A stretch of DNA of 64,000 nucleotides. Origin: Escherichia phage RB69. Position numbers and translations under genes: made by a program. The stretch lies in sequence record NC_004928.1; one strand, 5' to 3'. Under the pieces are notes generated by a model. It worked only from the letters and a program-made list of their open reading frames with translations. It was not told the origin of the DNA and made no database searches. Positions 1 to 40,234 of this stretch are shown piece after piece (positions within the stretch are counted from its first letter, which is position 1; every line of letters starts with the position of its first letter).

Positions 1-2214
1 TTATTTGGCCGCTTCCACGGCCTTCATGAATTTAACGATTTGAGCGACCTGTTCTTTGGAAAGAGTACCACGTCGTCCCATGTATTCTGACACAATATGA
101 TAATTGGTTTCAAATTCAATAACCATTTTATCATCATTATCGTAAGCATTATCTTTAAGCTTATCGAAAATTTTAGCACACAATTCTAACTTCCTGTTCA
201 GGTCTCTGTTATCAGCACCTGTGAATCGATTCCATCCCCAGCGATTATTTACTGTTGAGAGTTTTGCAAAGTCTTTACTGATTTCTTTGTTCTTAGAGCT
301 AAAATATTTACTAAGGAAATTAAGCTCTTCATTACGAGTAATATGATTCAAATAAGGCTGTGCTCTACGACTTGGTGATACATACTCATCATAATCCACT
401 TTATCAATTAGCGTAATATAGTCATTAATTGATTTTTCGAACAAACATTCTACTTCACCAAGTTTACGAACTTTCTTAACAATCTGCGGACGGACTACAG
501 TGAACTCTTTAATACCTGACAAATCGGCAATACGAGTCAAGAAATTAGAATCATAGTTCAACCAACCTTTATCTGCGTCAAGACATTCAGCGTTAGAACG
601 ATTACGAATTACAACATAACCTTGAATCTCATCAGCTTTACCGGCCGGAATAAAGAGATCTTCTGATACCCAAACATCGTTTTCATTCTTAAAGAACCGA
701 TGAGCACTTGGGGATTTAGGACGAGGCTGCGATGAACGTTCTTTAACTTCAATCCATGGTTTAACTAATGCAAGAATTTCAGAGGTCTTATAAAATTTAA
801 GGCTATCACCAGCGAAAATAACCTTTAATCGTTCCAGAAGTTTCATTGCAACTTCATCTTCCGGGTTAATGAATAATACGCTACTACCCCGTCCGGAAGG
901 AACCTTATCAACGAGTGTTGATGCATCTGTGGAAGTCAAAGCATCGTTCAGAGCACGCATCATTGGTACGCGGCCTTTCACATCGTCAATAACAATATCA
1001 ATATGCTTACGACTAATACCTAGCAGGCTATTAATTGAAATAGTTGCAGACGAGCTTCCGCTTTCACGAATACGACGAAGACGTGGGTCTGAAACGATAT
1101 CATATACAACGCCAAGGTTGCACCATTCAGGTCCCATTTTAAAACGTTTGTACAACTCAGAATAAGTTAGCTGTTCTTTAGAATATTTCAGTGATTCAAT
1201 ATTAGAACCAGCTTTTTCCATGTATTTACGAGCAGAGTAACCAAGAGAATCTATTTCACGGAATACATGACGTGGATATTCACAATCAATCCATTTCTTA
1301 GAATCTTCAGCAAATAATTTTGCATCAATTTCTGCAACACGTTTATGGATATTTGCTACTGTACGTTTATCAAATGACAATGCTTCACGAGACGGGGCTA
1401 CATCTAGTTCACCCATAGGGAATTTAATATAAGCTGTAGTGCATCGCGTCATCATCCATGTTTGTTCTTTAATAACACTTCCGATTGGATATACAATACC
1501 ACCATAAACAGCCATGATATTACCACGTTCACCCCATGGAGCTTCCTTGGCTAAATAAACATCATCGAATTCAGGGAAGTATTTGATATCTTTAACACCA
1601 CGAACTTCTGCAATATCGCCGAGAGGACGCATAACATAAGCAATTTCGGATGCGAACTTTTCAAAATCTTCTGGGTTAACAGGCACAACTACTTCAACGC
1701 CGGTCCGGTCATCAGGACCCATCTTATCTACAAAGGTCGGCTTAATTTGTGGACCTGTGTCATCTTGGTAGATTACGTAACCACGAACTTCACCATTATG
1801 ATAAGAAGTAATGTTAAACGTATCAGTATATGCTAATGGAGCTTTAGAACCGAGCCCGAATCCACCAATGAAATCGTTACTCGATGTTTTAGTTGAAGCA
1901 AAATATGAGTTATAAATTCCTGGCTCTTCGTCATTACCTCGAATGGTGAAATCGCTCATACCCGGTCCAAAATCACGAACTACAAAACGTGGGTCTAAAC
2001 GACCTGGAGCCTGAACAATAAACTTATCAGTGCAACCGTTAAGAATTTGTCCATCGATACAGTTTGTAATTAATTCACGTACACAAGCCAATTCTTTGTT
2101 TGTATAAAGGTCATTAGACAAAATCTTATAAACTTTGCTATTGCCTTGAATAGTGAATGCTGTGCTCTTACCGCCTGAACCAATAATCGTTTCTTTAGCC
2201 GTTTCGATAATCAT
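1..2214 (-). CDS. rIIA: rIIA membrane-associated rapid-lysis/exclusion-protection protein
   Basis: 737-aa ORF, stop TAA at 1-3; size and position as T4 rIIA; ATPase-like glycine-rich motifs near the N-terminus. Confidence 0.85.
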   Translation of the reverse strand: MIIETAKETIIGSGGKSTAFTIQGNSKVYKILSNDLYTNKELACVRELITNCIDGQILNGCTDKFIVQAPGRLDPRFVVRDFGPGMSDFTIRGNDEEPGIYNSYFASTKTSSNDFIGGFGLGSKAPLAYTDTFNITSYHNGEVRGYVIYQDDTGPQIKPTFVDKMGPDDRTGVEVVVPVNPEDFEKFASEIAYVMRPLGDIAEVRGVKDIKYFPEFDDVYLAKEAPWGERGNIMAVYGGIVYPIGSVIKEQTWMMTRCTTAYIKFPMGELDVAPSREALSFDKRTVANIHKRVAEIDAKLFAEDSKKWIDCEYPRHVFREIDSLGYSARKYMEKAGSNIESLKYSKEQLTYSELYKRFKMGPEWCNLGVVYDIVSDPRLRRIRESGSSSATISINSLLGISRKHIDIVIDDVKGRVPMMRALNDALTSTDASTLVDKVPSGRGSSVLFINPEDEVAMKLLERLKVIFAGDSLKFYKTSEILALVKPWIEVKERSSQPRPKSPSAHRFFKNENDVWVSEDLFIPAGKADEIQGYVVIRNRSNAECLDADKGWLNYDSNFLTRIADLSGIKEFTVVRPQIVKKVRKLGEVECLFEKSINDYITLIDKVDYDEYVSPSRRAQPYLNHITRNEELNFLSKYFSSKNKEISKDFAKLSTVNNRWGWNRFTGADNRDLNRKLELCAKIFDKLKDNAYDNDDKMVIEFETNYHIVSEYMGRRGTLSKEQVAQIVKFMKAVEAAK

Positions 2215-2226
2215 GTTTTTCTCTCA

Positions 2227-2427
2227 TCACAAGTTACGTTTAAAAATTTCTGCCACTTCGAGAAGTTCTTCTTTAGTAGCTGTGTCGGTTTGTATTTTAT
2301 ATCGAATTTCTTTAAAGCGTTCTTTAAAGGACTCTGCTGATTCGATATCAAAAAATCTTTGGATAAGCCGGAATTCCCGGAGCACTGCTTTATCAAAAAG
2401 TTCCAAGTCCACGTTATATGTTCTCAT
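2227..2427 (-). CDS. rIIA.1: rIIA.1-like small protein
   Basis: 66-aa ORF immediately upstream of rIIA, as in T4. Confidence 0.55.
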   Translation of the reverse strand: MRTYNVDLELFDKAVLREFRLIQRFFDIESAESFKERFKEIRYKIQTDTATKEELLEVAEIFKRNL

Positions 2428-2519
2428 AATATTCTCTTCAGTAGATTCCTAGGGCGCTATTACTAAAGACCATATAATCTATCATCTTATGTGTAATAGT
2501 GCCTCAGGCTATTCAGGAT

Positions 2520-3620
2520 TTACGCTGTGAAGATTTTATCCCACATCGCAACAACCGCATCTCGGTTATACTTCTTCCATACTGCTTCAGCACGTTTAAC
2601 TCGAGCTTCGTATGTGTCAGTGAATTCTAATACAGCTTTTATGTAAAGCGCAACTACTTCTTTTTTAGGAGTAGAGGAATCAATTTCTACACGCACAGTA
2701 TCTGGGTCGTATTCAAATGTCGCATGAGGATAATCCTTAAAAACTAACTGGATTACAGGGACACCTTTAGAGATGGCTTCAATAGAACTATTCTCTACCG
2801 TACCTGTGTCAGGACACGTATTAATAAGTGCTTTAGCTGTTTTAAGACGTTCCATAATTTCACTATGTGGAGCATCAATAATAACAGGATATTTAGCTGG
2901 TGGTGCCCATTTACTAGGACAGTATCCTGCACCATTTTCGCCTAGTGCTTTAATCGCTTCAAGAGCAACATCAGTACGACGCATTTTAGTGTCATAGCGT
3001 TGTGCACTAATAATCAGATCAGTCGCCGGAAGAACTTCAGGTTTCTCATTCAAACAAATAACCGGATAATCTTCGGCTTCAAACAACGGATTTGCTCGCC
3101 AATAATCATAATCGATTTTGTCAGTCAGACCTGAAGTCATATAACAATATTTGCGTTCAAATTCACGGAAGGCTTTAGTAGGAGCATAACTCTTACCACC
3201 ATTCTTATGAATTTGAATAGTCTGGTCCCAAATTTGAACAATGCCACGAGATACCGGTTCAAATGGTGTTGCCATAAAATTCTTATGAACTTTAGAGAGA
3301 CCTGCGTCTTTAATTGCCTGAACGGTTAGTTTAGTCGGTTCCATAGTAACAACAAAATCGTATTCATGGATGCCGGCTAGTTCAACAATCTTACGAGCCA
3401 TAGTATAACTCATACCTAGACTGAATTTAGTCAGATGACCAACAGGATGATGATTAACCTTCCAATCACCAAATGTGTCATTATCAAAGCCAATATAATC
3501 AATATCAGCACCGATGGACACAAGATATTTCAACACATTTAAATGTACTGCTTCAAGACCACCTTGTACACGGTCAGGGTTAAATGGGACTGCGCGAGAT
3601 GGGATAAACATAACTTTCAT
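2520..3620 (-). CDS. candidate sugar transferase for DNA modification (position of T4 mobA)
   Basis: 366-aa ORF between rIIA.1 and gene 39; no endonuclease motifs; transferase-sized; function inferred from context. Confidence 0.4.
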   Translation of the reverse strand: MKVMFIPSRAVPFNPDRVQGGLEAVHLNVLKYLVSIGADIDYIGFDNDTFGDWKVNHHPVGHLTKFSLGMSYTMARKIVELAGIHEYDFVVTMEPTKLTVQAIKDAGLSKVHKNFMATPFEPVSRGIVQIWDQTIQIHKNGGKSYAPTKAFREFERKYCYMTSGLTDKIDYDYWRANPLFEAEDYPVICLNEKPEVLPATDLIISAQRYDTKMRRTDVALEAIKALGENGAGYCPSKWAPPAKYPVIIDAPHSEIMERLKTAKALINTCPDTGTVENSSIEAISKGVPVIQLVFKDYPHATFEYDPDTVRVEIDSSTPKKEVVALYIKAVLEFTDTYEARVKRAEAVWKKYNRDAVVAMWDKIFTA

Positions 3621-3632
3621 AATTAAGCCTTA

Positions 3633-3664
3633 TTAAAATTAAAATGAAGCTCCCGAAGGAGCTT
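3633..3664 (-). terminator. Intrinsic terminator, UUCG-tetraloop hairpin followed by U-rich tract
   Basis: plus-strand aagctcc-cgaa-ggagctt; on the minus-strand RNA the loop is UUCG and is followed by a U-rich run; overlaps the gene 39 stop. Confidence 0.5.
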
Positions 3665-5483
3665 AGGACATCCATTCTTTACGAAGTTCTGAATCATCAC
3701 CCATCAACATTTCAAAGAGTTCTTTCCAATTTTCAGGAAGTTTAACTACGTCGTACACAGGGTTCTGAATCATTTTACGATATTCTGACTTTTCAAGGGA
3801 GCCTAATCCCTTGATGTATCGAATACTATGCTTAGGCAGTGTATCTTTAGCTTCTTCATACTCAGCTACAGTATAAAACCATTTTTGAGTTTTGCCAATT
3901 TGTGCAATAATTACAGGCGTTTTAACAAAGCGAATACGTCCTTGTTCAAACAATTCAGGCCAATTACTAAAGAAAGCAAGCAAAGCCGGATAAATACTTC
4001 CAAGGCCGTCATGATCGGCATCGGTCATAATTGCAATATTACGATAGTTCGTATTCTCTGCCTTTTCACCAAGAATAAGACCTGTGATAGCACAGATATC
4101 AAAGAGCTCTTTGTTCTTCATCATATCAGCATATGACATACCCCAGCTATTCATCACCTTACCACGTAATGGGAATCCGCCGTGTAGTTCACGGTCACGA
4201 ACATCAATGAGATATCCAATTGCCGAATCACCTTCTGTTAAGAACAATGTCGTATCTGCATCTTTACCGCATTGGTTAGCTTTAATATGCTTATGAACCT
4301 TAGCTTTAGTTGCCTTTTTAGCTGCTTTAGTTTCTGCAGCCTTTTCTGCTGCCAATTTACGAGCTAATGCTGCTTCAACAATAGGCATAATCAAGGCTTC
4401 GTTTTTAAGAAGTGCCTGAGCAATTTTCTTAGCATCTAATTGGATATGATTACGAATATCACCATACGTTGACGTTAAACGTTCTTTAGTCTGAGAATCA
4501 AAACGCATGTTGCTCATATCTCTAATAAACATCAACATTGTGAGACATTCTTTAACACGAGCTTTAGTGACTTCAATACCCTTATATTTCTTTTTAATAC
4601 CAGGCAAAAGATGTTCGCAGATATCATCCATTACACATTCAACATGATGACCACCATTTTTAGTATGGATGTTATTCACATAAGTTAAATGACGGAAGCC
4701 ATCTGGTGATGTTGTGAATGCTATAGAGACTTTATCATTTTCTTGAATGATGTTATCTTCGCCAAATTGTTTAGCAAATCGTTTAAAATTACCATCAACC
4801 TTTTTACCATTAAATGTGAACTTGATATCAGGATAAACGACTGCCAATGTTTGAAGTCGGTCTAAAGTAATATCTAAATAAATTTGAGATAAATTATGCT
4901 CTTCAAATGAAGTGAAATCAGGAGTGAAGATTACTTTAGTTCCTTTACCTTTAGATTTCTTAGAAGACCATGATTTGTTTTCCATTCCGTTTGAACAGTT
5001 AACAGTGATTTCATTTTCGCCATCTGACGTGATGCCTGTAAACAACGTAGAGAAGATATTAGTTAAACTACTCCCGACGCCGTTCATACCACCGGTCTTG
5101 CGTTCAGAGTCATCGCCAAAGTTACCACCAGCCTTTGGAATAGTCCAGGCTGCTACAGGCCCAGGAATTTGTTCACCCGTTTGGTCGGTAACTAAACCTT
5201 GAGGAATACCACGTCCGTTATCTTCCACCGAAACTTGATTATTTTTAATTTGCACATCAATTTTATTTGCAAACTTAAATGATGTACGAATAGCTTCATC
5301 AACCGAGTTGTCAATAATCTCATCGATTAATTTAACCAGACCAAGGAACATTTCAACTGGTGAATAATTACCAACCAAAAACGGCTCGTGGGCTTCTTTA
5401 GCAGAAAGAACCAATATACATACCATACGGTTTCTTAATAATGGTTCTACATCTGACAATACCCTAATTTCATTTTTAATCAT
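3663..5483 (-). CDS. 39: DNA topoisomerase II large (ATPase) subunit, genes 39 and 60 fused
   Basis: 606-aa ORF, GyrB-like ATPase; length equals T4 gp39 plus gp60, so no split gene 60. Confidence 0.85.
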   Translation of the reverse strand: MIKNEIRVLSDVEPLLRNRMVCILVLSAKEAHEPFLVGNYSPVEMFLGLVKLIDEIIDNSVDEAIRTSFKFANKIDVQIKNNQVSVEDNGRGIPQGLVTDQTGEQIPGPVAAWTIPKAGGNFGDDSERKTGGMNGVGSSLTNIFSTLFTGITSDGENEITVNCSNGMENKSWSSKKSKGKGTKVIFTPDFTSFEEHNLSQIYLDITLDRLQTLAVVYPDIKFTFNGKKVDGNFKRFAKQFGEDNIIQENDKVSIAFTTSPDGFRHLTYVNNIHTKNGGHHVECVMDDICEHLLPGIKKKYKGIEVTKARVKECLTMLMFIRDMSNMRFDSQTKERLTSTYGDIRNHIQLDAKKIAQALLKNEALIMPIVEAALARKLAAEKAAETKAAKKATKAKVHKHIKANQCGKDADTTLFLTEGDSAIGYLIDVRDRELHGGFPLRGKVMNSWGMSYADMMKNKELFDICAITGLILGEKAENTNYRNIAIMTDADHDGLGSIYPALLAFFSNWPELFEQGRIRFVKTPVIIAQIGKTQKWFYTVAEYEEAKDTLPKHSIRYIKGLGSLEKSEYRKMIQNPVYDVVKLPENWKELFEMLMGDDSELRKEWMS

Positions 5484-5505
5484 GTTGTCTCCTCGTTATG
5501 AAGGT

Positions 5506-5531
5506 ATTCTATCATCCGAAATCTAAAGCAA
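5506..5531 (-). promoter_or_regulatory. T4 middle-type promoter (MotA box TGCTTTA plus -10 TAGAAT)
   Basis: minus strand reads tttTGCTTTA, 12 nt, TAGAAT, then GAGGAG ribosome-binding site and the gene 39 ATG. Confidence 0.5.
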
Positions 5532-5548
5532 AAAGGGCCGAAGCCCTT
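5527..5548 (-). terminator. Intrinsic terminator with UUCG tetraloop
   Basis: agggc-cgaa-gccct hairpin followed by UUUUUGCUUU on the minus-strand RNA. Confidence 0.55.
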
Positions 5549-5969
5549 ATTTAAATTTAATTTTCTGAAGTGCATCAATTGCAGCCAAACGCCCTTGTTC
5601 ACTTTTAACTGTAATGACCACATCGCCTGATACGATCACCGAACCATCAACAAATTCTATAGAGCCTTTTTTGAAATCGACAGCTGTATCTGGTTCCGGA
5701 ACTTCTTCAAAGAATTTAAATTCTGCACCATAAAGCAGAATATCACCTTGCATACTAATGATTGTACGTCCAGGTCCATCGGTTTCAGCGGCAATCATTG
5801 AAACACCGTAACCAATCATCTCTTCTACAATAAAATCTCTTGATAATAAAACTGTATGCAGAGTAGTGTTAAGACGTTTACCAGTTGTATTAAGAATTCT
5901 CAAGAAATTATCTTCTTGACCTTTGATAATACGATATTTCTTACCAACTTCAAAACCTTTAAAAGCCAT
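5547..5969 (-). CDS. hypothetical protein (size and position compatible with T4 goF)
   Basis: 140-aa ORF upstream of gene 39. Confidence 0.45.
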   Translation of the reverse strand: MAFKGFEVGKKYRIIKGQEDNFLRILNTTGKRLNTTLHTVLLSRDFIVEEMIGYGVSMIAAETDGPGRTIISMQGDILLYGAEFKFFEEVPEPDTAVDFKKGSIEFVDGSVIVSGDVVITVKSEQGRLAAIDALQKIKFK

Positions 5970-5971
5970 AA

Positions 5972-6151
5972 TTAACCCTTCTTAAGTAAGTCGTAAAAAC
6001 CACCGTTCACATGTTTAGGAGCAGAAACCCGACGAGTAGACAGACGATGACATTCAGGGCAAACATCGTTTTCTCGTTCAGAAATTCTTTTAATTTTTTC
6101 ATATTCATGACCACAATCTTCAGATTGGCATTTATAGTCGTATAACGGCAT
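5972..6151 (-). CDS. FmdB-like zinc-ribbon protein
   Basis: 59-aa ORF translated by hand: MPLYDYKCQSEDCGHEYEKIKRISERENDVCPECH...; two CxxC pairs; fills the gap between neighbouring genes exactly. Confidence 0.5.
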   Translation of the reverse strand: MPLYDYKCQSEDCGHEYEKIKRISERENDVCPECHRLSTRRVSAPKHVNGGFYDLLKKG

Positions 6152-6153
6152 TA

Positions 6154-6582
6154 TTATTCCTTAAAATATGCTTTCAACATTCGATACAAAGACCACGCCT
6201 GGTCGTTATTTTCGATAGTAATCGTCATCACAGGAAATTCAGACAATTCGTCAAGTTCACCAGAATCTTGCTCTTCGGACGCTTGATATGGATTTCCAAC
6301 TTCGTCAAAGAACTCTGCTTCATTCGTGGAGAGCCAGATAAAGTTTTCATCAAGGATATCACCGCCTGTTGCGTATCCAACCATGCCAGTAGATGTCACA
6401 ATTTTAGTAGGACGTCCAAGATGGTCAACATCTAATACTTTAAATGGTTCCATGCCAAGACGTCGTGCGTAAATCCCATTATCAGTGTGGTCTTTAATAA
6501 ACTCTTCTTGGGCACGTTTATCTTTAAATTGGTACCATGAGTTAACGCTGAATTTATTAGCCATTAGTAAGTTTCCTTCCAA
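6154..6582 (-). CDS. hypothetical protein
   Basis: 142-aa ORF. Confidence 0.5.
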
Positions 6583-6791
6583 TAAGTTGTACCATTTTCA
6601 GTGATTTCACGGAAGATACCATAGATAGGCATTTCATCACCGAGTTTTTCGTAAACATAAACCACTTCAGTGTAGCATAAAAATTCAGTCCAGTTTTTCT
6701 GTACAACAACTAAATCAGGATTAAACAGAACATCTTCAAACTCGTCACGATTCGATTCAGTGGTTACATTTTTAATAATTTGACGTTTCAT
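6564..6791 (-). CDS. hypothetical protein
   Basis: ORF track 6564..6836; the first 15 codons are a read-through of the promoter/ribosome-binding cassette, so the likely start is Met16 after GAGGAG. Confidence 0.45.
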
Positions 6792-6819
6792 AATATTCTC
6801 CTCTTGTTTTGATAGGTCT

Positions 6820-6848
6820 ATAGTATCATAGACCATAGTTGTTGTACA
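6820..6848 (-). promoter_or_regulatory. early-type promoter cassette (TGTACA, 17 nt, TACTAT) with ggtctat/atagacc inverted repeat
   Basis: sigma70-like -35 and -10 on the minus strand upstream of the GAGGAG site. Confidence 0.4.
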
Positions 6849-7373
6849 TCATTTTAGCAAAATAAAATCAACTTGTTCTGCTAACGAACGTCTGAACATT
6901 AATTGACAACTTCCGAGTATGAAATCAAGTGCTTCATAGACCGCGATGTAGTATCCTTTAGCTTTGAAGAGTTCAACATCCACCTGGTCATCAAACCATG
7001 CATAAACCGCGTCAACACTTTCAAATCCAAAATAGAACTCTTGAGCCCAATCTTCGTTCAATTCAAATGTGTGCTCAATTCTATAGTATCTTAAGATATT
7101 TTGTTCAAGGAGTTTGTCTTCATTTACTGTAGGACGATTAGGGACATTATAGTTGTCGCCGTGATGGTAGAAGTTACCTGAGATTATTCCATGTTTATCA
7201 AGGAATTCCCATGTTTCTTCAGAGTTGTCAGTGCCAGACCAACCGTAAGGTGAGCGAGGTTCTTTATTCCAAGAGGTTTCCCAAATTCTGACGGCTTTAC
7301 CGTCTTCGATAGCAATTCCTGGTAATGATTCACGTTGAGTACAAAAACTACGTTCTACGCGGTAAACTAACAT
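6849..7373 (-). CDS. hypothetical protein
   Basis: 174-aa ORF. Confidence 0.5.
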   Translation of the reverse strand: MLVYRVERSFCTQRESLPGIAIEDGKAVRIWETSWNKEPRSPYGWSGTDNSEETWEFLDKHGIISGNFYHHGDNYNVPNRPTVNEDKLLEQNILRYYRIEHTFELNEDWAQEFYFGFESVDAVYAWFDDQVDVELFKAKGYYIAVYEALDFILGSCQLMFRRSLAEQVDFILLK

Positions 7374-7399
7374 ATTATTCTCCTCTGGTTGATATGGGT

Positions 7400-7428
7400 T
7401 ATAATATCAAAACCAGAGGAGAAGTAAA
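7400..7428 (-). promoter_or_regulatory. early promoter (GTTTAC, 17 nt, TATTAT); spacer complementary to the downstream ribosome-binding site
   Basis: cctctggtt (7381-7389) and aaccagagg (7411-7419) form an inverted repeat around the -10. Confidence 0.5.
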
Positions 7429-7433
7429 CAACT

Positions 7434-7853
7434 TTATGCGAAAGCAGCTGGGCTATATTTTTTAATTTGGAATTCAGGAACTACCATGAACTGTCCAGCG
7501 AAAACGATGTTATAAAGCTTAACACCATCTTCTACCCAACGGTCGCTAATAAAACCAGCAATTTGCTTAGTTTTCCATGGCGTTCCATCAGTTGCCGCAG
7601 CAATAGTGAATTCATGGTCTTTTTCAACAGAAACTGATCTGCATAGTCCCCATTTGAACGCTTTTTCTTCTGGTTCAATGAATTGGCTTTTAACGTAACC
7701 AATGTTACCATCGGCGTCACGAACTTTAACTTCATTACGTCCAAAAACCGGATCGCTCACAGAAAGAACTTCAACCAACTTCCCGGCAACTTTAGAGCGA
7801 GAAGCATCTGATACGTGTACATAATCACCAATAGAGAGATTTGCAATATTCAT
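7434..7853 (-). CDS. hypothetical protein, tandem paralogue A
   Basis: 139 aa; shares RSK.AG.LVEV and FISD.WVEDG.KLYNIVF motifs with the next ORF. Confidence 0.55.
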   Translation of the reverse strand: MNIANLSIGDYVHVSDASRSKVAGKLVEVLSVSDPVFGRNEVKVRDADGNIGYVKSQFIEPEEKAFKWGLCRSVSVEKDHEFTIAAATDGTPWKTKQIAGFISDRWVEDGVKLYNIVFAGQFMVVPEFQIKKYSPAAFA

Positions 7854-7862
7854 AATAATTCC

Positions 7863-8318
7863 TTAAGCTTTACGAGGAGACACATAGCGAGTGATTTCAG
7901 ATTCTTTAACAACTCGGAAGTCACCTAAGAATACGATATTGTATAACTTTTCACCATCTTCAACCCATTGGTCGCTAATGAAGCCACACATGGTATCAGT
8001 TGTGCTTGGATAACCGTATTCGTCGATGTAATCAAATTCTTTATCGGTAATAAATTCAACACCTTTGCAAAGGGCCCATTTAAACTGTACATTAGGTTCA
8101 GTAGAAGCAAAATGAGCGCTCACAGGAGTTTCCAAAAATTTAGGACTTACGTAAGCGTACCGAGTTTCAGTTTTCCCAGAACTAGGAATGATTCGAACTT
8201 TAACTTCTTTAACACGACCAGTACCATTAGTACGAAGTCCTACCACTTCAACTAGACGACCTGCAGCTTTAGAACGAGATGCAGTTGATACACGCTTAAT
8301 TTCACCAATAGTAATCAT
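7863..8318 (-). CDS. hypothetical protein, tandem paralogue B
   Basis: 151 aa; paralogous to 7434..7853. Confidence 0.55.
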   Translation of the reverse strand: MITIGEIKRVSTASRSKAAGRLVEVVGLRTNGTGRVKEVKVRIIPSSGKTETRYAYVSPKFLETPVSAHFASTEPNVQFKWALCKGVEFITDKEFDYIDEYGYPSTTDTMCGFISDQWVEDGEKLYNIVFLGDFRVVKESEITRYVSPRKA

Positions 8319-8344
8319 AATTTTTCTCTCTTTGTTGTTAAGAT

Positions 8345-8376
8345 TTATACTCCATCCGTCCTTGGATGTACAACAT
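8345..8376 (-). promoter_or_regulatory. early promoter cassette, degenerate copy of the tccaaccatccttgg family
   Basis: minus strand TTGTACA, 17 nt, TATAAAT. Confidence 0.4.
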
Positions 8377-8473
8377 TAATTAAGGATATTAACCACAGCA
8401 CTACGTGGAACTACACTAAAATCACCTGCATGAACAACGTTCAGAAGTTCAACAACCGTCTTCAATCCACTGA

Positions 8474-8872
8474 TCAGTTACCCATCCACTCACTGGACCT
8501 GCGAAACGGACGTCGAATTGAAACAGCTTTACACAACAAATCAGTAGGCTCAATAGGCTTAATCAGAGTACCGTATATACAAGCGATATCCATATCAATA
8601 CAGATGTCTTTAACGGGTTCTACTTCTTCAATCAACAGTTCAAAGTCTGTGCTTGGAAGGGCGGTAGTAGAAATTGTACCATATGAATTTTTAATTTCTA
8701 AGAATAACCAAGGGCCTTCAGCTTGTTTGATGAAGTTAACAATAGTGAAACTATTACCTTGAGTGGCGCCTAAAATTTCACAAAACTTTTCATAAGCTCG
8801 CACTGAAGCACCGTACCAGTTAATTTGTTTTTCGTCTTTCAGGATGTAAGTAGCCGTAGTATTGATATTCAT
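8474..8872 (-). CDS. hypothetical protein
   Basis: 132-aa ORF. Confidence 0.5.
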   Translation of the reverse strand: MNINTTATYILKDEKQINWYGASVRAYEKFCEILGATQGNSFTIVNFIKQAEGPWLFLEIKNSYGTISTTALPSTDFELLIEEVEPVKDICIDMDIACIYGTLIKPIEPTDLLCKAVSIRRPFRRSSEWMGN

Positions 8873-8890
8873 AATGTTTTCCTGTTTGGT

Positions 8891-8938
8891 ATAAGATAGA
8901 AAGATTATACTCCAACCATCCTTGGTTGTAAACTGTTT
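8891..8938. repeat. about 48-bp direct repeat, copy 1 (second copy at 50964..51010)
   Basis: taagatagaaagattatactccaaccatccttggttgtaaactgtttt read by eye at both sites. Confidence 0.6.
8904..8933 (-). promoter_or_regulatory. early promoter (GTTTACA, 17 nt, TATAAT) with spacer hairpin
   Basis: minus strand GTTTACAACCAAGGATGGTTGGAGTATAAT; spacer holds caacca-agga-tggttg. Confidence 0.55.
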
Positions 8939-9615
8939 TATCGCTGTTTTACACTTAACGGGTCAGGATTCTCAGGGACATCTTCAAGGCCAAGCGCATA
9001 ACGCTGAGCATATTTTAACATCAAAATATCTTTAGCACAATCATGAATACTATCATGGGCAACGAATCCTTTTAGCGTACCCATCGGTAATGGACACATA
9101 CTTAATCCTCGTGTCAACGAGTAAGCTTCGATTGCTGTACGAATATCGCGTTGAGCCCAGAATTTAACCGGTTCTAATTTATCGGTATCAATCTCTGGTT
9201 CAAGAACACCTTCATCACGATAGAGGTCACGAATCAAATCGACCAAGATCGGGAAGTCAAAGCTCATACCACGGCACCACATCTGTGATTTCCATTGGTC
9301 AACTTTATTAGCTCGACAATAATCTAAAAAGATTTTAATGCCTTCAAGCGTAGTGACATCGTCTTCAGACGGGGCCAAGTTTTTACGTGCTTCAGCCGAT
9401 TGTTCTTTCCACCATTTCATAGTGGATTTAGCGAAAACTCGCTTCCCTTTCTGAGAAGCTAAATTAAATTTAATTCGCTTACCTCGTTGAACAAGTTCTT
9501 CAAATGATTCAACAACTTCAGGGTCGGAATTATATGCAATAACCGCAAGGTCAATAACAGCCGCTTTTGATGTATTGCCGAATGTTTCAAAATCTATAAT
9601 AACATCAGTGCTCAT
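8938..9615 (-). CDS. dexA: exonuclease A (DnaQ-like 3-prime to 5-prime exonuclease)
   Basis: 225 aa; N-terminal IIDFETFG exonuclease motif; T4 dexA size and position. Confidence 0.8.
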   Translation of the reverse strand: MSTDVIIDFETFGNTSKAAVIDLAVIAYNSDPEVVESFEELVQRGKRIKFNLASQKGKRVFAKSTMKWWKEQSAEARKNLAPSEDDVTTLEGIKIFLDYCRANKVDQWKSQMWCRGMSFDFPILVDLIRDLYRDEGVLEPEIDTDKLEPVKFWAQRDIRTAIEAYSLTRGLSMCPLPMGTLKGFVAHDSIHDCAKDILMLKYAQRYALGLEDVPENPDPLSVKQR

Positions 9616-9624
9616 AATTTTCTC

Positions 9625-10938
9625 TCAAATAAAATGGACGTCAAAACGACCACGAGTTGTGCCGACATACAATAACTGTTTAGCTAATTCTGAATCAGCA
9701 TAATGGATACACGGTGTATAAACAAAGGCCGTGTCAACAGACATACCCTGGGCCTTATGGAAGGTTGATACTGGTAGTGCCTTCACCTTAGTGAACATAC
9801 GTTTAGCATCCCAGAATTCGCTCCATGGAGCTTTACCACCTTTATTCCAGAATTTGTATGTTTCTGCGGTCTTAGCCAAAAACAAATTGAATTTATAAAG
9901 CTCTTCTTCGGAAGAAATAACCTTTATATCCTCGCGGATGTATTCTTCATCATCCCCATATGTTTCTACTGTAAGATTCCAATATCGTATCATATACTCG
10001 CCCGAAACACCACGTGCTTTAACGAATGTAGACGTTTCTACAGCATCTCGAATACGAACGAATTGCCCGTTATTGAAAAGCATTTCGGTCATATTTTTAC
10101 CATCTAGCTTGTACGTCTTAGTAAATGGCTCTTGTAGAACAATGACTTCGTCTTTAATAAATGGTTTTTCTGTTTCAAGAAGTTTTCGGCGAATAATTGA
10201 ATTTAACTTGTCCACTGACTTATTTGTGAATGCCATCATCCGATTTTCGAAAAGGTCTTCAGGAGTTTTAACGACATTAAAATAATTCATCATATATGAT
10301 TTAAGGTCGGTATATCCATGAACACCATGCCCGTCAACTACTTTATCATAAATCCATTTGCCATTACGAATATCGGTCGCAACATCAATAATTGGTGCAT
10401 TGCTACGTTTAACTTCTGTAAGGTCGCATTGCACGAAGTCTTTGTGAGTGAAGAAAGGACTTAGATATGCAGTGGATTCGCCTGGGTCTACCGGTCGAAT
10501 CTGACATCGGTCGCCAATTCCAATTACTGTGCACCATTTAGGGATACTAGCTAACATTATTTTAAACAGAGAACGGTCGCACATTGACGCTTCATCAAAT
10601 AACAGTACACGACACAAGGCTAAGTCGGGAACCTTTTTCTGTTCAAACAATACGTTTTCTTCGTATGTAGTTGGGTTGATTTTAAGAATGCTATGAATAG
10701 TCGATGCTTCTTGACCAGCAAGTTTGCTTAGAACCTTTTTAGCGGCATGTGTTGGTGCTGCTAAAATAATACCTGATTCTCCAGAAGAAATAAGAGCTTC
10801 AACGATAAATCTAGTAAGGGTTGTTTTACCTGTACCGGCAGGCCCATTAATAGTTACGTGATGTTTCTTTTCTTTAATAGCTTTCATAACAACGTTGAAG
10901 GCGTTTTTCTGGCCTTCAGTCAAATCATCAAATGTCAT
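9625..10938 (-). CDS. dda: Dda DNA helicase (superfamily 1)
   Basis: 437 aa; Walker A GPAGTGKTT; near-colinear with the T4 Dda sequence as I recall it. Confidence 0.9.
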   Translation of the reverse strand: MTFDDLTEGQKNAFNVVMKAIKEKKHHVTINGPAGTGKTTLTRFIVEALISSGESGIILAAPTHAAKKVLSKLAGQEASTIHSILKINPTTYEENVLFEQKKVPDLALCRVLLFDEASMCDRSLFKIMLASIPKWCTVIGIGDRCQIRPVDPGESTAYLSPFFTHKDFVQCDLTEVKRSNAPIIDVATDIRNGKWIYDKVVDGHGVHGYTDLKSYMMNYFNVVKTPEDLFENRMMAFTNKSVDKLNSIIRRKLLETEKPFIKDEVIVLQEPFTKTYKLDGKNMTEMLFNNGQFVRIRDAVETSTFVKARGVSGEYMIRYWNLTVETYGDDEEYIREDIKVISSEEELYKFNLFLAKTAETYKFWNKGGKAPWSEFWDAKRMFTKVKALPVSTFHKAQGMSVDTAFVYTPCIHYADSELAKQLLYVGTTRGRFDVHFI

Positions 10939-11246
10939 CGTAAAGTCCCTGCAATTGGAATACTAACAATACGGCCTGTGTCCAGGATTCGTTGATACAA
11001 TCTTTGCGTCTCCGCATCTAGTTTAACGTGTTTCATTTCAAGCTTATTAAACCAGAACTTACGCGGAGTTTCGACCATTCTTAGAACTCCCATTTTTAAA
11101 TCTGTTTTATACTGTGTTTTCAAAGTATCGAAAACTTTATCTGCAATATCCTTTCTAAAAAATACTGCAGGACGATGCTCATCAAGAGGAACCGGGACAG
11201 TAAATCCTTCCATATCTCGATAAACTATTGCATATACATAAACCAT
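10935..11246 (-). CDS. hypothetical protein (dda.1 position)
   Basis: 103-aa ORF overlapping the dda start by 4 nt. Confidence 0.5.
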   Translation of the reverse strand: MVYVYAIVYRDMEGFTVPVPLDEHRPAVFFRKDIADKVFDTLKTQYKTDLKMGVLRMVETPRKFWFNKLEMKHVKLDAETQRLYQRILDTGRIVSIPIAGTLR

Positions 11247-11248
11247 AA

Positions 11249-11995
11249 TTAACCTTTAATCAGTTGGAATAATGATGCGCTAAGTGGTAAGCCACGTTTC
11301 AATTTTAATTTACCAATGAAACCAATCTTTTCAAAACGTTGCAGACCTTGGATAACTTTATCATATGTATCGAAAAGCGATTCAGCGTCAGTTAATTTAG
11401 TTTTAGTTTTCCAGTCAGAGCCTTTAAGAAGAACGTTGAGTTTAGTAAGTTCATGGCCTTCTGCTTGATGTGAGCCATTAATGCGTGCTTTCAAAGCAAC
11501 AATTCTAAGTTTAGATTCGTTAGATAAAGGTTGATTTTTCATCATGTTTGCCATATGCTTAACACGGTTTTCACGTTTTGCTCGGATTTTTAAAATAGTA
11601 CCATAAACCTTTTTAATTTGGGCCCATTTCTTCTCGTCGAGATTAAGTTTCTCTACTTTACGAGCAGAAGGATTAGCGATACGTCTTGCAATAGCATCAC
11701 GTTTCTCAATAAGTTCTTCTAATGTTAAATCAGAACGAGCCGTGTTATATTTTTTCTTAACTGGGATAACATTACCTTTAATGTAGCCTATATCATTATT
11801 AAAACGTTCTAAGGATAATTTCTCACCTTCAACAGAGTTATTGAAAGATTCACCTGAGTAAGCGCAGACCTTTTGATCAAGAATGTTTTTAAGGTAATTA
11901 AAGTCTAAGTTAAAATCCTTAGAGCGTCTCTTCGCAGAAGCTCTGGTGTGGTCAAGACGACGATTGATTTTGTTAATTTTATTATTTGATAACAT
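11249..11995 (-). CDS. srd: Srd-like protein (putative anti-sigma / sigma-mimic)
   Basis: 248-aa basic protein at the T4 srd position upstream of modA. Confidence 0.5.
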   Translation of the reverse strand: MLSNNKINKINRRLDHTRASAKRRSKDFNLDFNYLKNILDQKVCAYSGESFNNSVEGEKLSLERFNNDIGYIKGNVIPVKKKYNTARSDLTLEELIEKRDAIARRIANPSARKVEKLNLDEKKWAQIKKVYGTILKIRAKRENRVKHMANMMKNQPLSNESKLRIVALKARINGSHQAEGHELTKLNVLLKGSDWKTKTKLTDAESLFDTYDKVIQGLQRFEKIGFIGKLKLKRGLPLSASLFQLIKG

Positions 11996-12044
11996 AATAT
12001 TTTCCTCTGTCTTACGGACGTTAAGGTCATTTAGCTGATAAGTC

Positions 12045-12073
12045 TATAATATCATGCCCTCAGGTAGTGTACA
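12045..12073 (-). promoter_or_regulatory. early promoter (TGTACA, about 16 nt, TATTAT) upstream of srd
   Basis: minus strand GTGTACActacctgagggcatgaTATTATagac. Confidence 0.4.
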
Positions 12074-12086
12074 CTCTTTTTTCATA

Positions 12087-12115
12087 AAATGCTTTAATTT
12101 TTTATGTGTTATAAT
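12087..12115 (+). promoter_or_regulatory. plus-strand MotA-box promoter-like site (aaaTGCTTTA, 13 nt, TATAAT)
   Basis: perfect MotA box and -10 on the plus strand, pointing antisense into modA and modB. Confidence 0.35.
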
Positions 12116-12148
12116 GGTTCTGAGTTCCATCCGGTTATTCCAATTCAG

Positions 12149-12757
12149 TCAGTAACTGACAATAGACAGATTCCAGATTGTATAATGTCCATCTTGAATA
12201 ATAGAATCTACACGCAGTGTAGTCCCTATAGGGAGCATAAATTCACATTCGTCAGATATAAGTCTAGCGTTAGACCGTCTTGTCGCTTCAGGGAAAGCTC
12301 CATTGAACTCACAAGATGGCGCAGCCAGAATCATGTTAAGCATATGTTCACGGAAGTTGAAAGCAAATGGTGCATCTTTGATGCAGAACATATTAAATGT
12401 TCCGTAAAAATTATACGAAGCAAAGTTACGTGCTACACCGAACACTGGACTGAAGCTCATTACTCTGTCAAATTTAATAATACTACCAATGCCTTTATCA
12501 TCAAGTGTGGCCATAGTTTTCTTAGAGATTCCACGATACATTGTCTCAGGAACAGAAGACGACCAATTTCTACGAACAATTGCACTTAAATCTTGTTGGA
12601 TGCTATCAGGCTTGTTTTCCATACACTGCCATAGTACACTTTGTTCAATGTCACTGAATTGCTCATCGATTTTGTACTGAAGCATATCTTGATAATCCGG
12701 GCATTGAGCACGACGAACCATTTCTTCAATTTCACACTCGTTATACGGCATAAACAT
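12149..12757 (-). CDS. modA: ADP-ribosyltransferase ModA-like
   Basis: 202 aa; YRGI and SFS motifs; paralogous to the next ORF; T4 modA position. Confidence 0.6.
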   Translation of the reverse strand: MFMPYNECEIEEMVRRAQCPDYQDMLQYKIDEQFSDIEQSVLWQCMENKPDSIQQDLSAIVRRNWSSSVPETMYRGISKKTMATLDDKGIGSIIKFDRVMSFSPVFGVARNFASYNFYGTFNMFCIKDAPFAFNFREHMLNMILAAPSCEFNGAFPEATRRSNARLISDECEFMLPIGTTLRVDSIIQDGHYTIWNLSIVSY

Positions 12758-12814
12758 TTAGGTTTCTCCTATGGTTGATAAAGGTATAGTATCATCATCG
12801 GAAGAGTTTGTACA

Positions 12815-13396
12815 CTAAAAATTCAACATTTTCAAATGAATGATTTTGTATAATCTAGATAAAGGGTCATATTCTAAGTCTTCAATTTCCACAATCTCAA
12901 ATCTAGAGATACCTGAGACCATGTACTCTTGTTCAGATTCAATCATATCTAGGACATCAACACGTGTTTCTTCCATAACATGCTTAGGGTTCTTTCCGGC
13001 AAGTACAATGTTAATCATGTTTTGGTAGTAATCAAAAATGAATGGAGCATTCCTGAGACTAAGAATAGTGTACGTCTGATATTCCCATCTCCCGGAGAAT
13101 TGACGAGCTGTACTGAAATCAGTTGTGAACGATGTTACTCGTCCAGGAGACCAATGGCATCCAACAGAAAGAAGTGAAAGACGTTCTACTTCTTCTGGAG
13201 TTACACCACGGTAGAGTTCTACTGGTACTGTAGAAGTCATATGCTTACGAACAAGATGGTCTAATTCATAGTGGAAATCCGGGTCTTCCTTAGAATCGGT
13301 GCAAGCCCAGAGAATGTTTTGTTCTTGGCGGGTGAATTTGCTATCAATCAGATTTGTTAGGTATTCGCGTTCTTGAAGTTCAGATTGACATGTCAT
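12815..13396 (-). CDS. modB: ADP-ribosyltransferase ModB-like
   Basis: 193 aa; YRGV motif; paralogue of modA. Confidence 0.6.
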   Translation of the reverse strand: MTCQSELQEREYLTNLIDSKFTRQEQNILWACTDSKEDPDFHYELDHLVRKHMTSTVPVELYRGVTPEEVERLSLLSVGCHWSPGRVTSFTTDFSTARQFSGRWEYQTYTILSLRNAPFIFDYYQNMINIVLAGKNPKHVMEETRVDVLDMIESEQEYMVSGISRFEIVEIEDLEYDPLSRLYKIIHLKMLNF

Positions 13397-13423
13397 GATA
13401 GACCTCCATTTAAAGATAAGCCT

Positions 13424-13452
13424 ATCATAACATGAGAGGAGGGAATGTAAAC
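13424..13452 (-). promoter_or_regulatory. early promoter (GTTTAC, 17 nt, TATGAT) upstream of modB
   Basis: spacer cctcc is complementary to the downstream GGAGG site. Confidence 0.5.
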
Positions 13453-13612
13453 TACTTTTTAAGCTTTCCTACTAAAGGTCCATCAGGACCGGGTTGTTCT
13501 AACATGAATAAGGACGCTTTAAAAAGCAATGTCAACCCTTTCACCATTCGATACCATGTCTCAAAGTCTTTTTCCTTGATTTCCAGTAAGAATTTCTCTT
13601 TCAATTTCTCTT

Positions 13613-13979: not shown

Positions 13980-14049
13980 ATAAACGGCATTTTCCGTAGA
14001 TTCATAACCTAAGTCCTTTATGCCTTCTTCAAGACTAAACGGAGAATTT

Positions 14050-14683: not shown

Positions 14684-14716
14684 TAATTGTTGCGTCGAAC
14701 AAAACGAACACCACCA

Positions 14717-18000: not shown

Positions 18001-18001
18001 T

Positions 18002-38975: not shown

Positions 38976-39991
38976 TGTGTTGCCTCAATATAAAGTTCGT
39001 TGGAATATTTGACCAGCGCTTCTCTGTCTTCGTCTGAGATATCTGGAATCGCGTCAATATATTCTTTAATGATATCTTGAAGTGATTTAATCTCGATTTC
39101 CTGGTCGTCATCAGATTCAACACTGTTATCAACTTTAGAAACCATACGAAGAGAGTGAACTACTTTTTCAAGTTCAGATTCAAACTTAGTCAACTCTGAA
39201 TCAATTTCTGATACTATAACACGTACGGCTAGATTGGTATAATCAGAATAATTGATTTTGCCTTTAAACGGATAAGTGATTCGTCGATGCCATGTTGTTT
39301 CATTAGGAATAAATTCCATACGTTCAACATCAGTGTCAAATACCCAGAATCCGCGCGGGTCGTTCTCATCACCTGCAGTAAGAGTCCATGGTGTCCCAAT
39401 ATATTTGACGTTAGCAGCTTCAGAGATTGTGTGGAAGTGGCCGGACCAGACTTGTTTATAAGTCTTTAAGAAATCAGGTTCAAGCCCATGAGACTTCATC
39501 CCTTTATAGAAATAAAAGCCATTCAGTTCCCAATGACCAACACAATACGCGGCAGAAGAAGTCTTGATGTGCTCTAAGATTTCACCTGTATTTTCTTCAC
39601 ACATCCATGGAACGATATCAATCAGACATCCGTCAAAATCTACAGTAGTTGGATGCTCGTAAATAGTAAAGTTTTCAAATTGAGTTAACAATTCAGAAAC
39701 AGTGTTAGGTGTTATTGTATTCTTAAACGCCATGTCATGGTTTCCTATCGTGACATGAACGTGAATACCTGCTTTAGAAATCATATCAACGATTTCACGA
39801 TTGAATTCCATTGTACGATGTGTTATTGCTTTACGGACATCAAACCAATCGCCGTACTGAATCCAAGTTTTAATCCCGTGTTTCTTAGAGTATTCAATTG
39901 CTTGACGAATACCATCACGTTGAATATCTTGAACCCATGGGTCGTCTTGTTTGACTCCGATATGGAAGTCGCCTAAGTGCAAAATTTTCAT
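38972..39991 (-). CDS. 47: recombination nuclease gp47 (Mre11/SbcD-like)
   Basis: 339 aa; phosphoesterase motifs LHLGDFH and GNHD. Confidence 0.9.
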   Translation of the reverse strand: MKILHLGDFHIGVKQDDPWVQDIQRDGIRQAIEYSKKHGIKTWIQYGDWFDVRKAITHRTMEFNREIVDMISKAGIHVHVTIGNHDMAFKNTITPNTVSELLTQFENFTIYEHPTTVDFDGCLIDIVPWMCEENTGEILEHIKTSSAAYCVGHWELNGFYFYKGMKSHGLEPDFLKTYKQVWSGHFHTISEAANVKYIGTPWTLTAGDENDPRGFWVFDTDVERMEFIPNETTWHRRITYPFKGKINYSDYTNLAVRVIVSEIDSELTKFESELEKVVHSLRMVSKVDNSVESDDDQEIEIKSLQDIIKEYIDAIPDISDEDREALVKYSNELYIEATQ

Positions 39992-40014
39992 ATTATTTCC
40001 TCATTAGTTAATTC

Positions 40015-40039
40015 ATTTTATCATCCGTTTATAAAGCAA
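40015..40039 (-). promoter_or_regulatory. T4 middle-type promoter (MotA box TGCTTTA, 11 nt, TAAAAT) upstream of gene 47
   Basis: minus strand tttttGCTTTAtaaacggatgaTAAAAT then GAGGA and ATG. Confidence 0.5.
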
Positions 40040-40062
40040 AAAAGGAACTCCGAAGAGTTCCT
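40035..40062 (-). terminator. Intrinsic terminator with UUCG tetraloop
   Basis: aggaactc-cgaa-gagttcct followed by UUUUUGCUUU on the minus-strand RNA. Confidence 0.6.
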
Positions 40063-40234
40063 ATCCACATAGTACACCGTACAGAGGCTCATTTGAACTT
40101 TTAAATCGAATGGGCTTGTATGTAATAGTTCCTTCGGCTTTAGCTTTATCATAAGACTCTTTAAAACGTCTCGTTCTTTCTGCTTTGCCTTTACGGATTT
40201 TATCGAAATTTTCAGAGGTCAGGTCGTTCGTCAT
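40061..40234 (-). CDS. hypothetical small protein
   Basis: 57 aa translated by hand (MTNDLTSENFDKIRKGKAERTRRFKESYDKAKAEG...); its stop lies inside the terminator stem. Confidence 0.35.
   Translation of the reverse strand: MTNDLTSENFDKIRKGKAERTRRFKESYDKAKAEGTITYKPIRFKSSNEPLYGVLCG

What the first reader, a model, noticed from the sequence alone, without database searches (positions are those of the whole stretch)
5506..5548. Middle promoter fused to the preceding terminator, seen twice
Upstream of gene 39 (5506-5548) and gene 47 (40015-40062) the same arrangement appears: a UUCG-loop hairpin, a U-tract, and within that U-tract a MotA box (tttTGCTTTA) followed 11-12 nt later by a -10 element. 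The terminator U-run supplies part of the MotA box. This packs termination of the upstream unit and middle-phase restart into about 45 nt.
Basis: partly seen in the sequence, partly recalled or inferred. Interest (0 to 1): 0.4.

Follow-up and report, generated by a model that had tools for sequence, protein, structure and literature searches.

The report
Terminator hairpin fused to MotA promoter
Upstream of the topoisomerase gene 39 and the recombination nuclease gene 47 of this RB69-type T-even phage, a stop-signal hairpin for the early transcript runs straight into a phage-activated "middle" promoter; the arrangement is real and conserved, but both parts and this kind of composite module are already in the T4 literature.

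Summary
Each site has a stop codon, a C(UUCG)G hairpin, a run of 5 or 6 T, TGCTTTA, an 11 or 12 nt spacer, a TAnAAT -10 element, a Shine-Dalgarno sequence and an ATG, all within 63-69 nt.

The window matches the published RB69 feature coordinates base for base. Nolan et al. 2006 already list middle promoters Pm:5538 and Pm:40046. They also list TransTerm terminators at 5535-5546 and 40044-40061, and the two sets of coordinates overlap by 3-4 nt.

The T4 counterparts P39, P47 and PmobB are mapped MotA-dependent promoters, and each has a UUCG hairpin abutting the MotA box. Upstream of gene 39 the hairpin-T-run-GCTTT module is kept in 16 of 19 distinct lineages. These carry at least 7 different, fully complementary stems. 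The T-run is far purer than in MotA promoters that lack a hairpin.

Composite terminator/promoter cassettes in T4-like phages (PeSL, and Mot-box PmSL) were described in 2010 and 2014.

The most likely function is a leaky intrinsic terminator that insulates and time-gates a MotA/AsiA-dependent restart. Termination itself has not been shown experimentally. The finding is already known and of low interest.

The parts
5547..5549 (-). Stop codon TAA of the upstream 140-aa ORF (RB69ORF005c), directly abutting the hairpin.
   Evidence: named in the RB69 terminator table
5533..5548 (-). Hairpin AAGGGC-UUCG-GCCCUU (G-C core 5535-5546); predicted intrinsic terminator stem-loop.
   Evidence: TransTerm score 100 at 5535-5546 in RB69. 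Stems covary across lineages.
5524..5534 (-). T5 run (5534-5530) that continues into the MotA box tttTGCTTTA (5533-5524). The same T residues serve as terminator U-tract and as the MotA-box 5' flank.
5506..5511 (-). -10 element TAGAAT, 12 nt after the MotA box. The predicted start is about 5499, by analogy with T4 P39.
   Evidence: T4 P39 start site
5481..5494 (-). Shine-Dalgarno GAGGAG (5494-5489) and ATG (5483-5481) of gene 39 (fused 60+39 topoisomerase subunit).
40061..40063 (-). Stop codon TAG of the 57-aa a-gt.2 homologue; its G is the first base of the stem.
40043..40062 (-). Hairpin AGGAACUC-UUCG-GAGUUCCU (core 40044-40061); predicted intrinsic terminator stem-loop.
   Evidence: z -3.30. 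TransTerm score 100 at 40044-40061. Stems covary across lineages.
40032..40043 (-). T6 run (40043-40038) that continues into the MotA box tttTGCTTTA (40041-40032).
40015..40020 (-). -10 element TAAAAT, 11 nt after the MotA box. The predicted start is about 40008.
   Evidence: RB69 Pm:40046
39989..40002 (-). Shine-Dalgarno GAGGA (40002-39998) and ATG (39991-39989) of gene 47.

Best explanation
Each site is a composite regulatory module of a T-even phage, almost certainly RB69.

How it most likely works:
1. A short GC-rich C(UUCG)G hairpin plus U-run lies right after the stop codon of the last gene of an upstream unit. For site 1 the nearest predicted promoter upstream is Pe:6863. For site 2 the unit contains gene 55.
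2. This hairpin and U-run act as a Rho-independent, probably leaky, terminator for host RNA polymerase.
3. The same T residues form the a/t flank of a MotA box centred near -30. With a sigma70 -10 element 11-12 bp downstream, this makes a middle promoter that fires only once the early proteins MotA and AsiA have remodelled sigma70.
4. The net effect is insulation and timing. Early read-through into genes 39 and 47 is cut down. The promoter is shielded from occlusion by upstream transcription. The genes are switched on in the middle phase.

Shown here: the sequence anatomy, its conservation, compensatory change in the stems, and homology to mapped T4 promoters.
Inferred: that RNA 3' ends form in the U-run, that MotA drives starts at about 5499 and 40008 in this phage, and that the tight packing reflects genome compaction and not obligatory mechanistic coupling.
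For: - Exact consensus match and spacing.
- Published RB69 predictions at identical coordinates: Pm:5538 and Pm:40046, terminators 5535-5546 and 40044-40061, both scored 100. Of the published RB69 coordinates, 13 of 14 terminators and all 13 minus-strand Pm sites land on the expected motifs in the window.
- T4 homologues P39 (start 5349), P47 (36576) and PmobB (38682) are mapped MotA-dependent promoters. Their UUCG hairpins end at -32, -31 and -33.
- Site 2 is sequence-homologous to the T4 module after a-gt.2.
- In an unbiased set of gene-39 upstream regions, 16 of 19 distinct sequences down to 55% gp39 identity keep hairpin + T-run + GCTTT + -10. Stems include GGGC, GGCC, GGGAGC, GAGCC, GGAGCC, GGAGC and GGGAUCC. 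Loops include UUCG, CUAGU, UUAG, UAAC, UACG and GUA. The region downstream of a-gt.2 behaves the same way.
- Only 2 of 36 T4 middle promoters without a hairpin have 4 or more T in the 5 nt before GCTT (T fraction 0.39), whereas the hairpin-linked promoters have near-pure T-runs.
- The U-tails are at or above the 99.96th percentile.
- MotA is present in close relatives and in RB69.
- PeSL stem-loops of a T4-like phage terminate as strongly as rrnB T1 in a reporter assay (PMC2839356).
Against: - No 3'-end or 5'-end data exist for this phage.
- The site 1 stem has only 4 G-C pairs, and its fold is not significant against shuffles (z -1.66).
- The T4 homologues have interrupted U-tracts (UUUAGCUUU, UAUAUUGCUUU; 93rd-98th percentile).
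- In related phages the same type of hairpin plus U-run sits immediately before an SD/ATG with no promoter (L210, L180/181). In another it lies downstream of the Mot-type promoter (L008). Efficient termination there would silence the next gene.
- Several UUCG hairpins in the window have no U-run at all. A role in RNA stability could therefore be the primary one.
Confidence: 0.8

Rival explanations
1. The hairpins are mainly RNA-stability elements: 3'-end protectors of the upstream mRNA against exonucleases, or processing barriers. On this reading they are not transcription terminators, and the promoter merely lies next to them.
For: - UUCG hairpins were first noted in T4 mRNA as exceptionally stable structures (PMC4371310).
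- Many in this window lack a U-run: 55328, 22741, 20983, 33428.
- T4 homologues have weak U-tracts.
- Related phages place the hairpin plus U-run before a gene with no promoter, or inside a 5' UTR.
Against: - The T-run is strongly associated with the hairpin-linked promoters and is far purer than the MotA box needs.
- The tails are at or above the 99.96th percentile.
- TransTerm gives 100.
- Comparable stem-loops in RB49 terminate efficiently in vivo.
- A protective 3' hairpin also needs a 3' end to be made nearby, and termination would supply it.
Confidence: 0.12
2. The module is kept chiefly as a recombination cassette of the PeSL/PmSL type. Conserved terminator/promoter repeats would serve as crossover points for inserting and deleting genes, and regulation would be a by-product.
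For: - Between a-gt.2 and gene 47, T4 carries mobB and a-gt flanked by two hairpin-Mot modules, whereas RB69 has a single module.
- The gene upstream of the gene-39 module differs between T4 (39.1) and RB69 (ORF005c).
- The two modules within one genome are as similar to each other as to their orthologues (local score 25 in both phages).
- The mechanism is published for PeSLs.
Against: - Both modules precede essential core genes and are retained at the same position across lineages from Escherichia to Acinetobacter phages.
- Stems covary instead of being conserved in sequence, which favours selection on structure over selection on homology.
Confidence: 0.05
3. The fusion is mechanistically coupled. 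Either polymerase released in the U-run stays on the DNA and is handed to the overlapping MotA promoter, or MotA/AsiA-holoenzyme bound at the box changes termination efficiency.
For: - The expected release point (7-9 nt after the stem) lies inside the MotA box.
- E. coli RNAP often remains on DNA after intrinsic termination and can reinitiate at nearby promoters (PMC6978380, PMC6978322, PMC10372574).
- The gap between stem and GCTT is held at 4-6 nt in most lineages.
Against: - Nothing here tests it.
- One lineage has the promoter 14 nt further away (L160) and two have no hairpin.
- The uvsX site has a 16-nt gap.
- Short intergenic regions alone explain the tight packing.
- Most of the 58 T4 middle promoters have no hairpin.
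Confidence: 0.08

Closest known systems
T4 middle promoters P39, P47 and PmobB (P-alpha-gt.1), MotA/AsiA-dependent (Guild et al. 1988, as tabulated in Hinton 2010, PMC2988021)
   Same: - Same genes or positions.
- Same layout: stop codon, C(UUCG)G hairpin, MotA box, 11-12 nt spacer, -10 element.
- Site 2 aligns with the T4 module after a-gt.2, and site 1 aligns with T4 P39.
   Different: - RB69 has clean T5/T6 runs and a TGCTTTA box, where T4 has TTTA/TATATT flanks and AGCTTTA or TGCTTTA.
- In T4 the a-gt.2 module drives mobB/a-gt, and a second module drives 47.1/47.
- Start sites are mapped in T4 only.
RB69 predicted features Pm:5538, Pm:40046 and TransTerm terminators 5535-5546 and 40044-40061 (Nolan et al. 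2006, PMC1524935, Additional files 4 and 6)
   Same: Identical coordinates and strand. These are the same sequence elements.
   Different: The paper lists them in separate tables. The passages I searched do not comment on the 3-4 nt overlap or on the shared T-run.
PeSL / PmSL composite terminator-promoter cassettes of T4-like phages (Arbiol et al. 2010, PMC2839356; Comeau et al. 2014, PMC4122927)
   Same: - An intergenic stem-loop (A-run, G-run, loop, C-run, T-run) lies just upstream of or overlapping a promoter, followed by SD and ATG.
- Mot-box versions (PmSL) are described in vibriophage nt-1.
- Terminator activity of one stem-loop was shown by reporter assay.
   Different: - PeSLs carry sigma70 early promoters and are concentrated in hyperplastic regions next to ORFans.
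- These two modules carry MotA promoters and precede conserved core replication and recombination genes.
C(UUCG)G hairpins of T4 mRNA (Tuerk et al. 1988, as summarised in PMC4371310)
   Same: Same loop, same closing C-G pair, and the same phage group.
   Different: That work concerned thermodynamic stability, not the link to MotA boxes. I could not read the original paper.

Membership tests
T4-type middle (MotA/AsiA-dependent) promoter | MotA box (a/t)(a/t)(a/t)TGCTT(t/c)A centred near -30. | tested here: met
   tttTGCTTTA at 5533-5524 and 40041-40032; consensus from PMC2988021.
T4-type middle (MotA/AsiA-dependent) promoter | Good sigma70 -10 element (TAnnnT) 12 +/- 1 bp after the box, with no -35 hexamer. 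| tested here: met
   TAGAAT after 12 nt and TAAAAT after 11 nt. Neither site appears in the sigma70 -35/-10 scan listing for 1-20000 (10 weaker hits were not shown).
T4-type middle (MotA/AsiA-dependent) promoter | The phage encodes MotA and AsiA. | tested here: inconclusive
   motA lies outside the 64-kb window. Close Mosigvirus relatives of the window carry a MotA orthologue at about 50% identity to T4. RB69 is reported to have motA and asiA (PMC1524935).
T4-type middle (MotA/AsiA-dependent) promoter | MotA-dependent transcription start about 7 nt after the -10 element. | not testable with these tools
   Mapped only for the T4 homologues P39, P47 and PmobB.
Rho-independent (intrinsic) terminator | Stable GC-rich hairpin on the transcribed strand downstream of a stop codon. 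| tested here: met
   Hairpin energy is -7.9 kcal/mol (site 1). The 48-nt site 2 fold is -13.9 kcal/mol. Stems are complementary in every lineage despite different sequences.
Rho-independent (intrinsic) terminator | U-rich tract immediately 3' of the stem. | tested here: met
   UUUUUGCUUU and UUUUUUGCUUU. Tail scores 5.01 and 5.43, at or above the 99.96th percentile of the strand. TransTerm score 100.
Rho-independent (intrinsic) terminator | RNA 3' ends form in the U-tract, with termination in vitro or in vivo. | not testable with these tools
   I found no 3'-end data for RB69 or for the T4 homologues in the papers I could search.
PeSL/PmSL composite cassette | Stem-loop, promoter, SD and ATG together in one short intergenic region. 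| tested here: met
   63 and 69 nt between stop and ATG contain all the elements.
PeSL/PmSL composite cassette | Repeated, mutually similar copies associated with indels between related genomes. | tested here: inconclusive
   The two copies are mutually similar (score 25; 0 of 300 shuffles reach it). The site 2 module borders the mobB/a-gt indel between T4 and RB69. There are only two or three copies, and both lie before core genes.

The most novel reading that the evidence does not exclude
The overlap of release site and MotA box may be functional. Host RNA polymerase that terminates in the U-run could stay on the DNA and be captured directly by the overlapping MotA/AsiA-dependent promoter. 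Alternatively, MotA-bound holoenzyme could tune termination. Either way, early transcription flux would be converted into middle transcription at the same spot, instead of the two elements acting independently.
Probability: 0.08. Interest if true: 0.55.

Novelty: already known. Interest (0 to 1): 0.15.

Why it matters
It matters little as a discovery. The promoters and terminators were predicted in RB69 in 2006. The T4 counterparts were mapped in 1988. Composite terminator/promoter cassettes in T4-like phages were described in 2010-2014.

The comparative result adds some value. The hairpin-T-run-MotA-box unit before gene 39 is held together across lineages from Escherichia to Acinetobacter phages, with compensatory stem changes. 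That makes it a clean natural template for testing how intrinsic termination and sigma appropriation interact when they share the same few base pairs. It is also a compact insulator-plus-timed-promoter part.

Tried and rejected
- Rfam scan of the whole window at gathering thresholds: no family.
- The T4 GenBank record in the collection carries no promoter or terminator features, so the annotation could not be used directly.
- The RB69 records NC_004928 and AY303349 are not in the phage collection. Identity with RB69 therefore rests on coordinate agreement with published tables.
- The T4 genome review (PMC150520) and Tuerk et al. 1988 (PMC279771) are not held.
- The T4 post-transcriptional review has no mention of terminators or UUCG.
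- Literature searches found no transcript 3'-end map for T4 or RB69.
- The gp47-based locus search gave only 17 loci with very mixed upstream regions. The a-gt.2-based search was more informative.
- A plus-strand reading was rejected: there is TGCTTTA-N11-TATATT at 33428 next to a CGAA-loop hairpin. All genes here are on the minus strand, and this is the reverse complement of the gene 43 promoter hairpin.
- A bidirectional-terminator reading was considered. The plus-strand tail is T-rich at site 1 but not at site 2, so the two sites are not consistent.

Full report
**What the window is**

Megablast places the window in the genus Mosigvirus (RB69-like T-even phages). It starts at rIIA, and almost every annotated gene of the close relative MM02 is on the minus strand. 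The RB69 features published by Nolan et al. 2006 fall on the expected motifs at identical coordinates. This holds for 13 of 14 TransTerm hairpins and all 13 minus-strand middle-promoter predictions in the first 64 kb. I infer that the window is RB69 positions 1-64000. The RB69 record itself is not in the searchable collection.

**The observation**

Both sites are as described, on the minus strand.

Site 1 runs as follows:
- TAA stop of a 140-aa ORF (5549-5547)
- GGGC-UUCG-GCCC hairpin (5546-5535, extended by two A-U pairs)
- T5 run (5534-5530)
- TGCTTTA (5530-5524)
- 12 nt spacer
- TAGAAT (5511-5506)
- GAGGAG
- ATG of the fused 60+39 topoisomerase gene (5483)

Site 2 runs as follows:
- TAG stop of the a-gt.2 homologue (40063-40061)
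- GGAACUC-UUCG-GAGUUCC hairpin (40061-40044)
- T6 run (40043-40038)
- TGCTTTA (40038-40032)
- 11 nt spacer
- TAAAAT (40020-40015)
- ATG of gene 47 (39991)

Both boxes read tttTGCTTTA. That is the published consensus (a/t)(a/t)(a/t)TGCTTtA placed 12 +/- 1 bp from the -10 element (PMC2988021).

**Chance**

- The composite pattern is expected 0.00 times in shuffles.
- MotA-box/-10 patterns are enriched, 13 against 1.9 expected.
- The tails behind the two stems are at the 99.96th and 99.99th percentile of T-richness, equal to the best stand-alone terminator in the window at 14972.
- Site 2 folds significantly better than shuffles (z -3.30). Site 1, with four G-C pairs, does not on its own (z -1.66).

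**Homology to mapped T4 promoters**

In T4 the sequence before gene 39 is AAGGCC-TTCG-GGCCTT-TAGCTTTA-12-TATAAT. The start site listed for P39 (5349) lies 7 nt after that -10 element. Before 47.1/47 the sequence is AGGGC-TTCG-GCCCT-TTAGCTTTA-12-TATAAT, with P47 starting at 36576.

I examined all 58 tabulated T4 middle promoters.
- A UUCG hairpin abuts the MotA box at P39 (-49 to -32), P47 (-50 to -31) and PmobB (-52 to -33).
- P43 has the hairpin inside the promoter (-36 to -19).

Site 2 of the window is sequence-homologous to the PmobB module that follows a-gt.2 in T4. T4 therefore has mobB and a-gt inserted between that module and gene 47, with a second module at the far end of the insertion.

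**Conservation**

An unbiased set of 53 loci encoding gp39 relatives gave 19 distinct upstream sequences at 55% identity or more.
- Sixteen keep hairpin, T-run, GCTTT(A/T/C), a spacer of about 12 nt and a -10 element. This includes Acinetobacter phage Acj61.
- One has the promoter 14 nt further downstream, and two have no hairpin.
- Stems differ (GGGC, GGCC, GGGAGC, GAGCC, GGAGCC, GGAGC, GGGAUCC) and so do loops (UUCG, CUAGU, UUAG, UAAC, UACG, GUA). Every stem is fully complementary. That pattern indicates selection on structure.
- The same holds downstream of a-gt.2 homologues.
- The T-run is not explained by the MotA box alone. In 36 T4 middle promoters without a hairpin, the T fraction in the five positions before GCTT is 0.39, and only two have four or more T.

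**What is already published**

- Nolan et al. 2006 list Pm:5538 (5498-5538), Pm:40046 (40007-40046), and terminators 5535-5546 and 40044-40061, both with TransTerm score 100. The coordinates overlap by 3-4 nt.
- RB69 is reported to encode motA and asiA. Close relatives of the window carry MotA.
- Arbiol et al. 2010 and Comeau et al. 2014 describe composite terminator/promoter cassettes (PeSL) in T4-like phages. These include classes where the stem-loop overlaps the promoter, Mot-box versions (PmSL), and a reporter assay showing strong termination by one stem-loop.
- UUCG hairpins in T4 mRNA date from 1988.

**The wider pattern in this window**

Terminator followed by promoter is the rule here, not the exception.
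- Hairpins at 14970, 20980 and 58162 are followed at once by, or overlap, the predicted early promoters Pe:14950, Pe:20971 and Pe:58138.
- A hairpin at 24056-24042 is followed 16 nt later by the Mot-type promoter of uvsX.
- The intergenic regions holding sites 1 and 2 are only 63 and 69 nt. Hairpin, promoter and leader can only fit if they are packed end to end.

**Mechanism**

The best-supported reading is a leaky intrinsic terminator that ends an upstream unit. For site 1 the nearest predicted upstream promoter is Pe:6863. For site 2 the unit contains gene 55. The terminator insulates and time-gates a MotA/AsiA-dependent restart for genes 39 and 47. Sharing of the T-run is a product of compaction.

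The leakiness is inferred from relatives. In some, the same hairpin plus U-run precedes a gene with no promoter (L210, L180/181). In another it lies downstream of the promoter (L008).

Three rivals cannot be excluded without transcript-end mapping:
- RNA-stability hairpins
- recombination cassettes
- true coupling through polymerase recycling

None of them changes the identification of the parts.

**Verdict**

The finding is already known, and interest is low.

Noticed in passing
window 33409-33428 (minus strand), upstream of gene 43: A UUCG hairpin AATGGGAC-TTCG-GTCCCATT sits inside a promoter, ending 5 nt before TATAAT. In T4 P43 (mapped start 29933) the only GCTT at the MotA-box position is the hairpin loop itself (GGGGCTTCGG). 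The hairpin DNA may therefore double as the MotA box. RB69 has ACTT there, like the T4 P46 variant.
   Followed up: partly
window 24020-24056 (minus strand), upstream of uvsX: A third, looser terminator-then-middle-promoter pair. Hairpin GGCTC-GUUAA-GAGCC has the stop codon in its loop. After 16 nt of A/U-rich tail comes aaaTGCTGTA-12-TATAAT. Both parts are in the RB69 tables (terminator 24042-24056, Pm:24034).
   Followed up: partly
window 14951-14972, 20962-20983, 58141-58162 (minus strand): Terminator-like hairpins directly followed by, or overlapping, T4-type early promoters (GTTTACA-N17-TAnnAT). The published RB69 coordinates overlap by up to 7 nt (terminator 20965-20980, Pe:20971).
   Followed up: partly
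window 5484-5549 versus 39992-40063; T4 5329-5400 versus 36560-36626: The two hairpin-Mot modules within one genome are as similar to each other as to their orthologues. The local score is 25 in both RB69 and T4, and the RB69 pair shares CGGATGATA(G/A)AAT. This hints at a repeated cassette or gene conversion.
   Followed up: partly
window 39992-40234 versus T4 36447-38922 (L022): T4 carries mobB and a-gt between the a-gt.2 module and gene 47, bounded by a hairpin-Mot module at each end. RB69 has one module and no insert. Some T4-type contigs have a-gt but no mobB.
   Followed up: partly
L008 1060-1200; L210 and L180/L181 upstream regions: In some related phages the hairpin plus U-run lies downstream of the Mot-type promoter (in the 5' leader of gene 47). 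In others it lies directly before SD/ATG with no promoter at all. The hairpins must therefore allow read-through or serve another role there.
   Followed up: no
RB69 143221-143278 (outside the window; published tables only): The predicted middle promoter Pm:143278 ends exactly where the terminator 143221-143239 (nrdA<--nrdA.2) begins. That is a promoter-then-hairpin order, the reverse of the finding.
   Followed up: no
window 6792-6848, 7374-7433, 20470-20523, 61306-61361 and others (minus strand): Many early-promoter intergenic regions fold into long hairpins that run from just after the -35 element to the Shine-Dalgarno sequence (for example -24.4 kcal/mol at 7433-7374). They resemble the PeSL class in which the stem-loop overlaps the promoter.
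   Followed up: no
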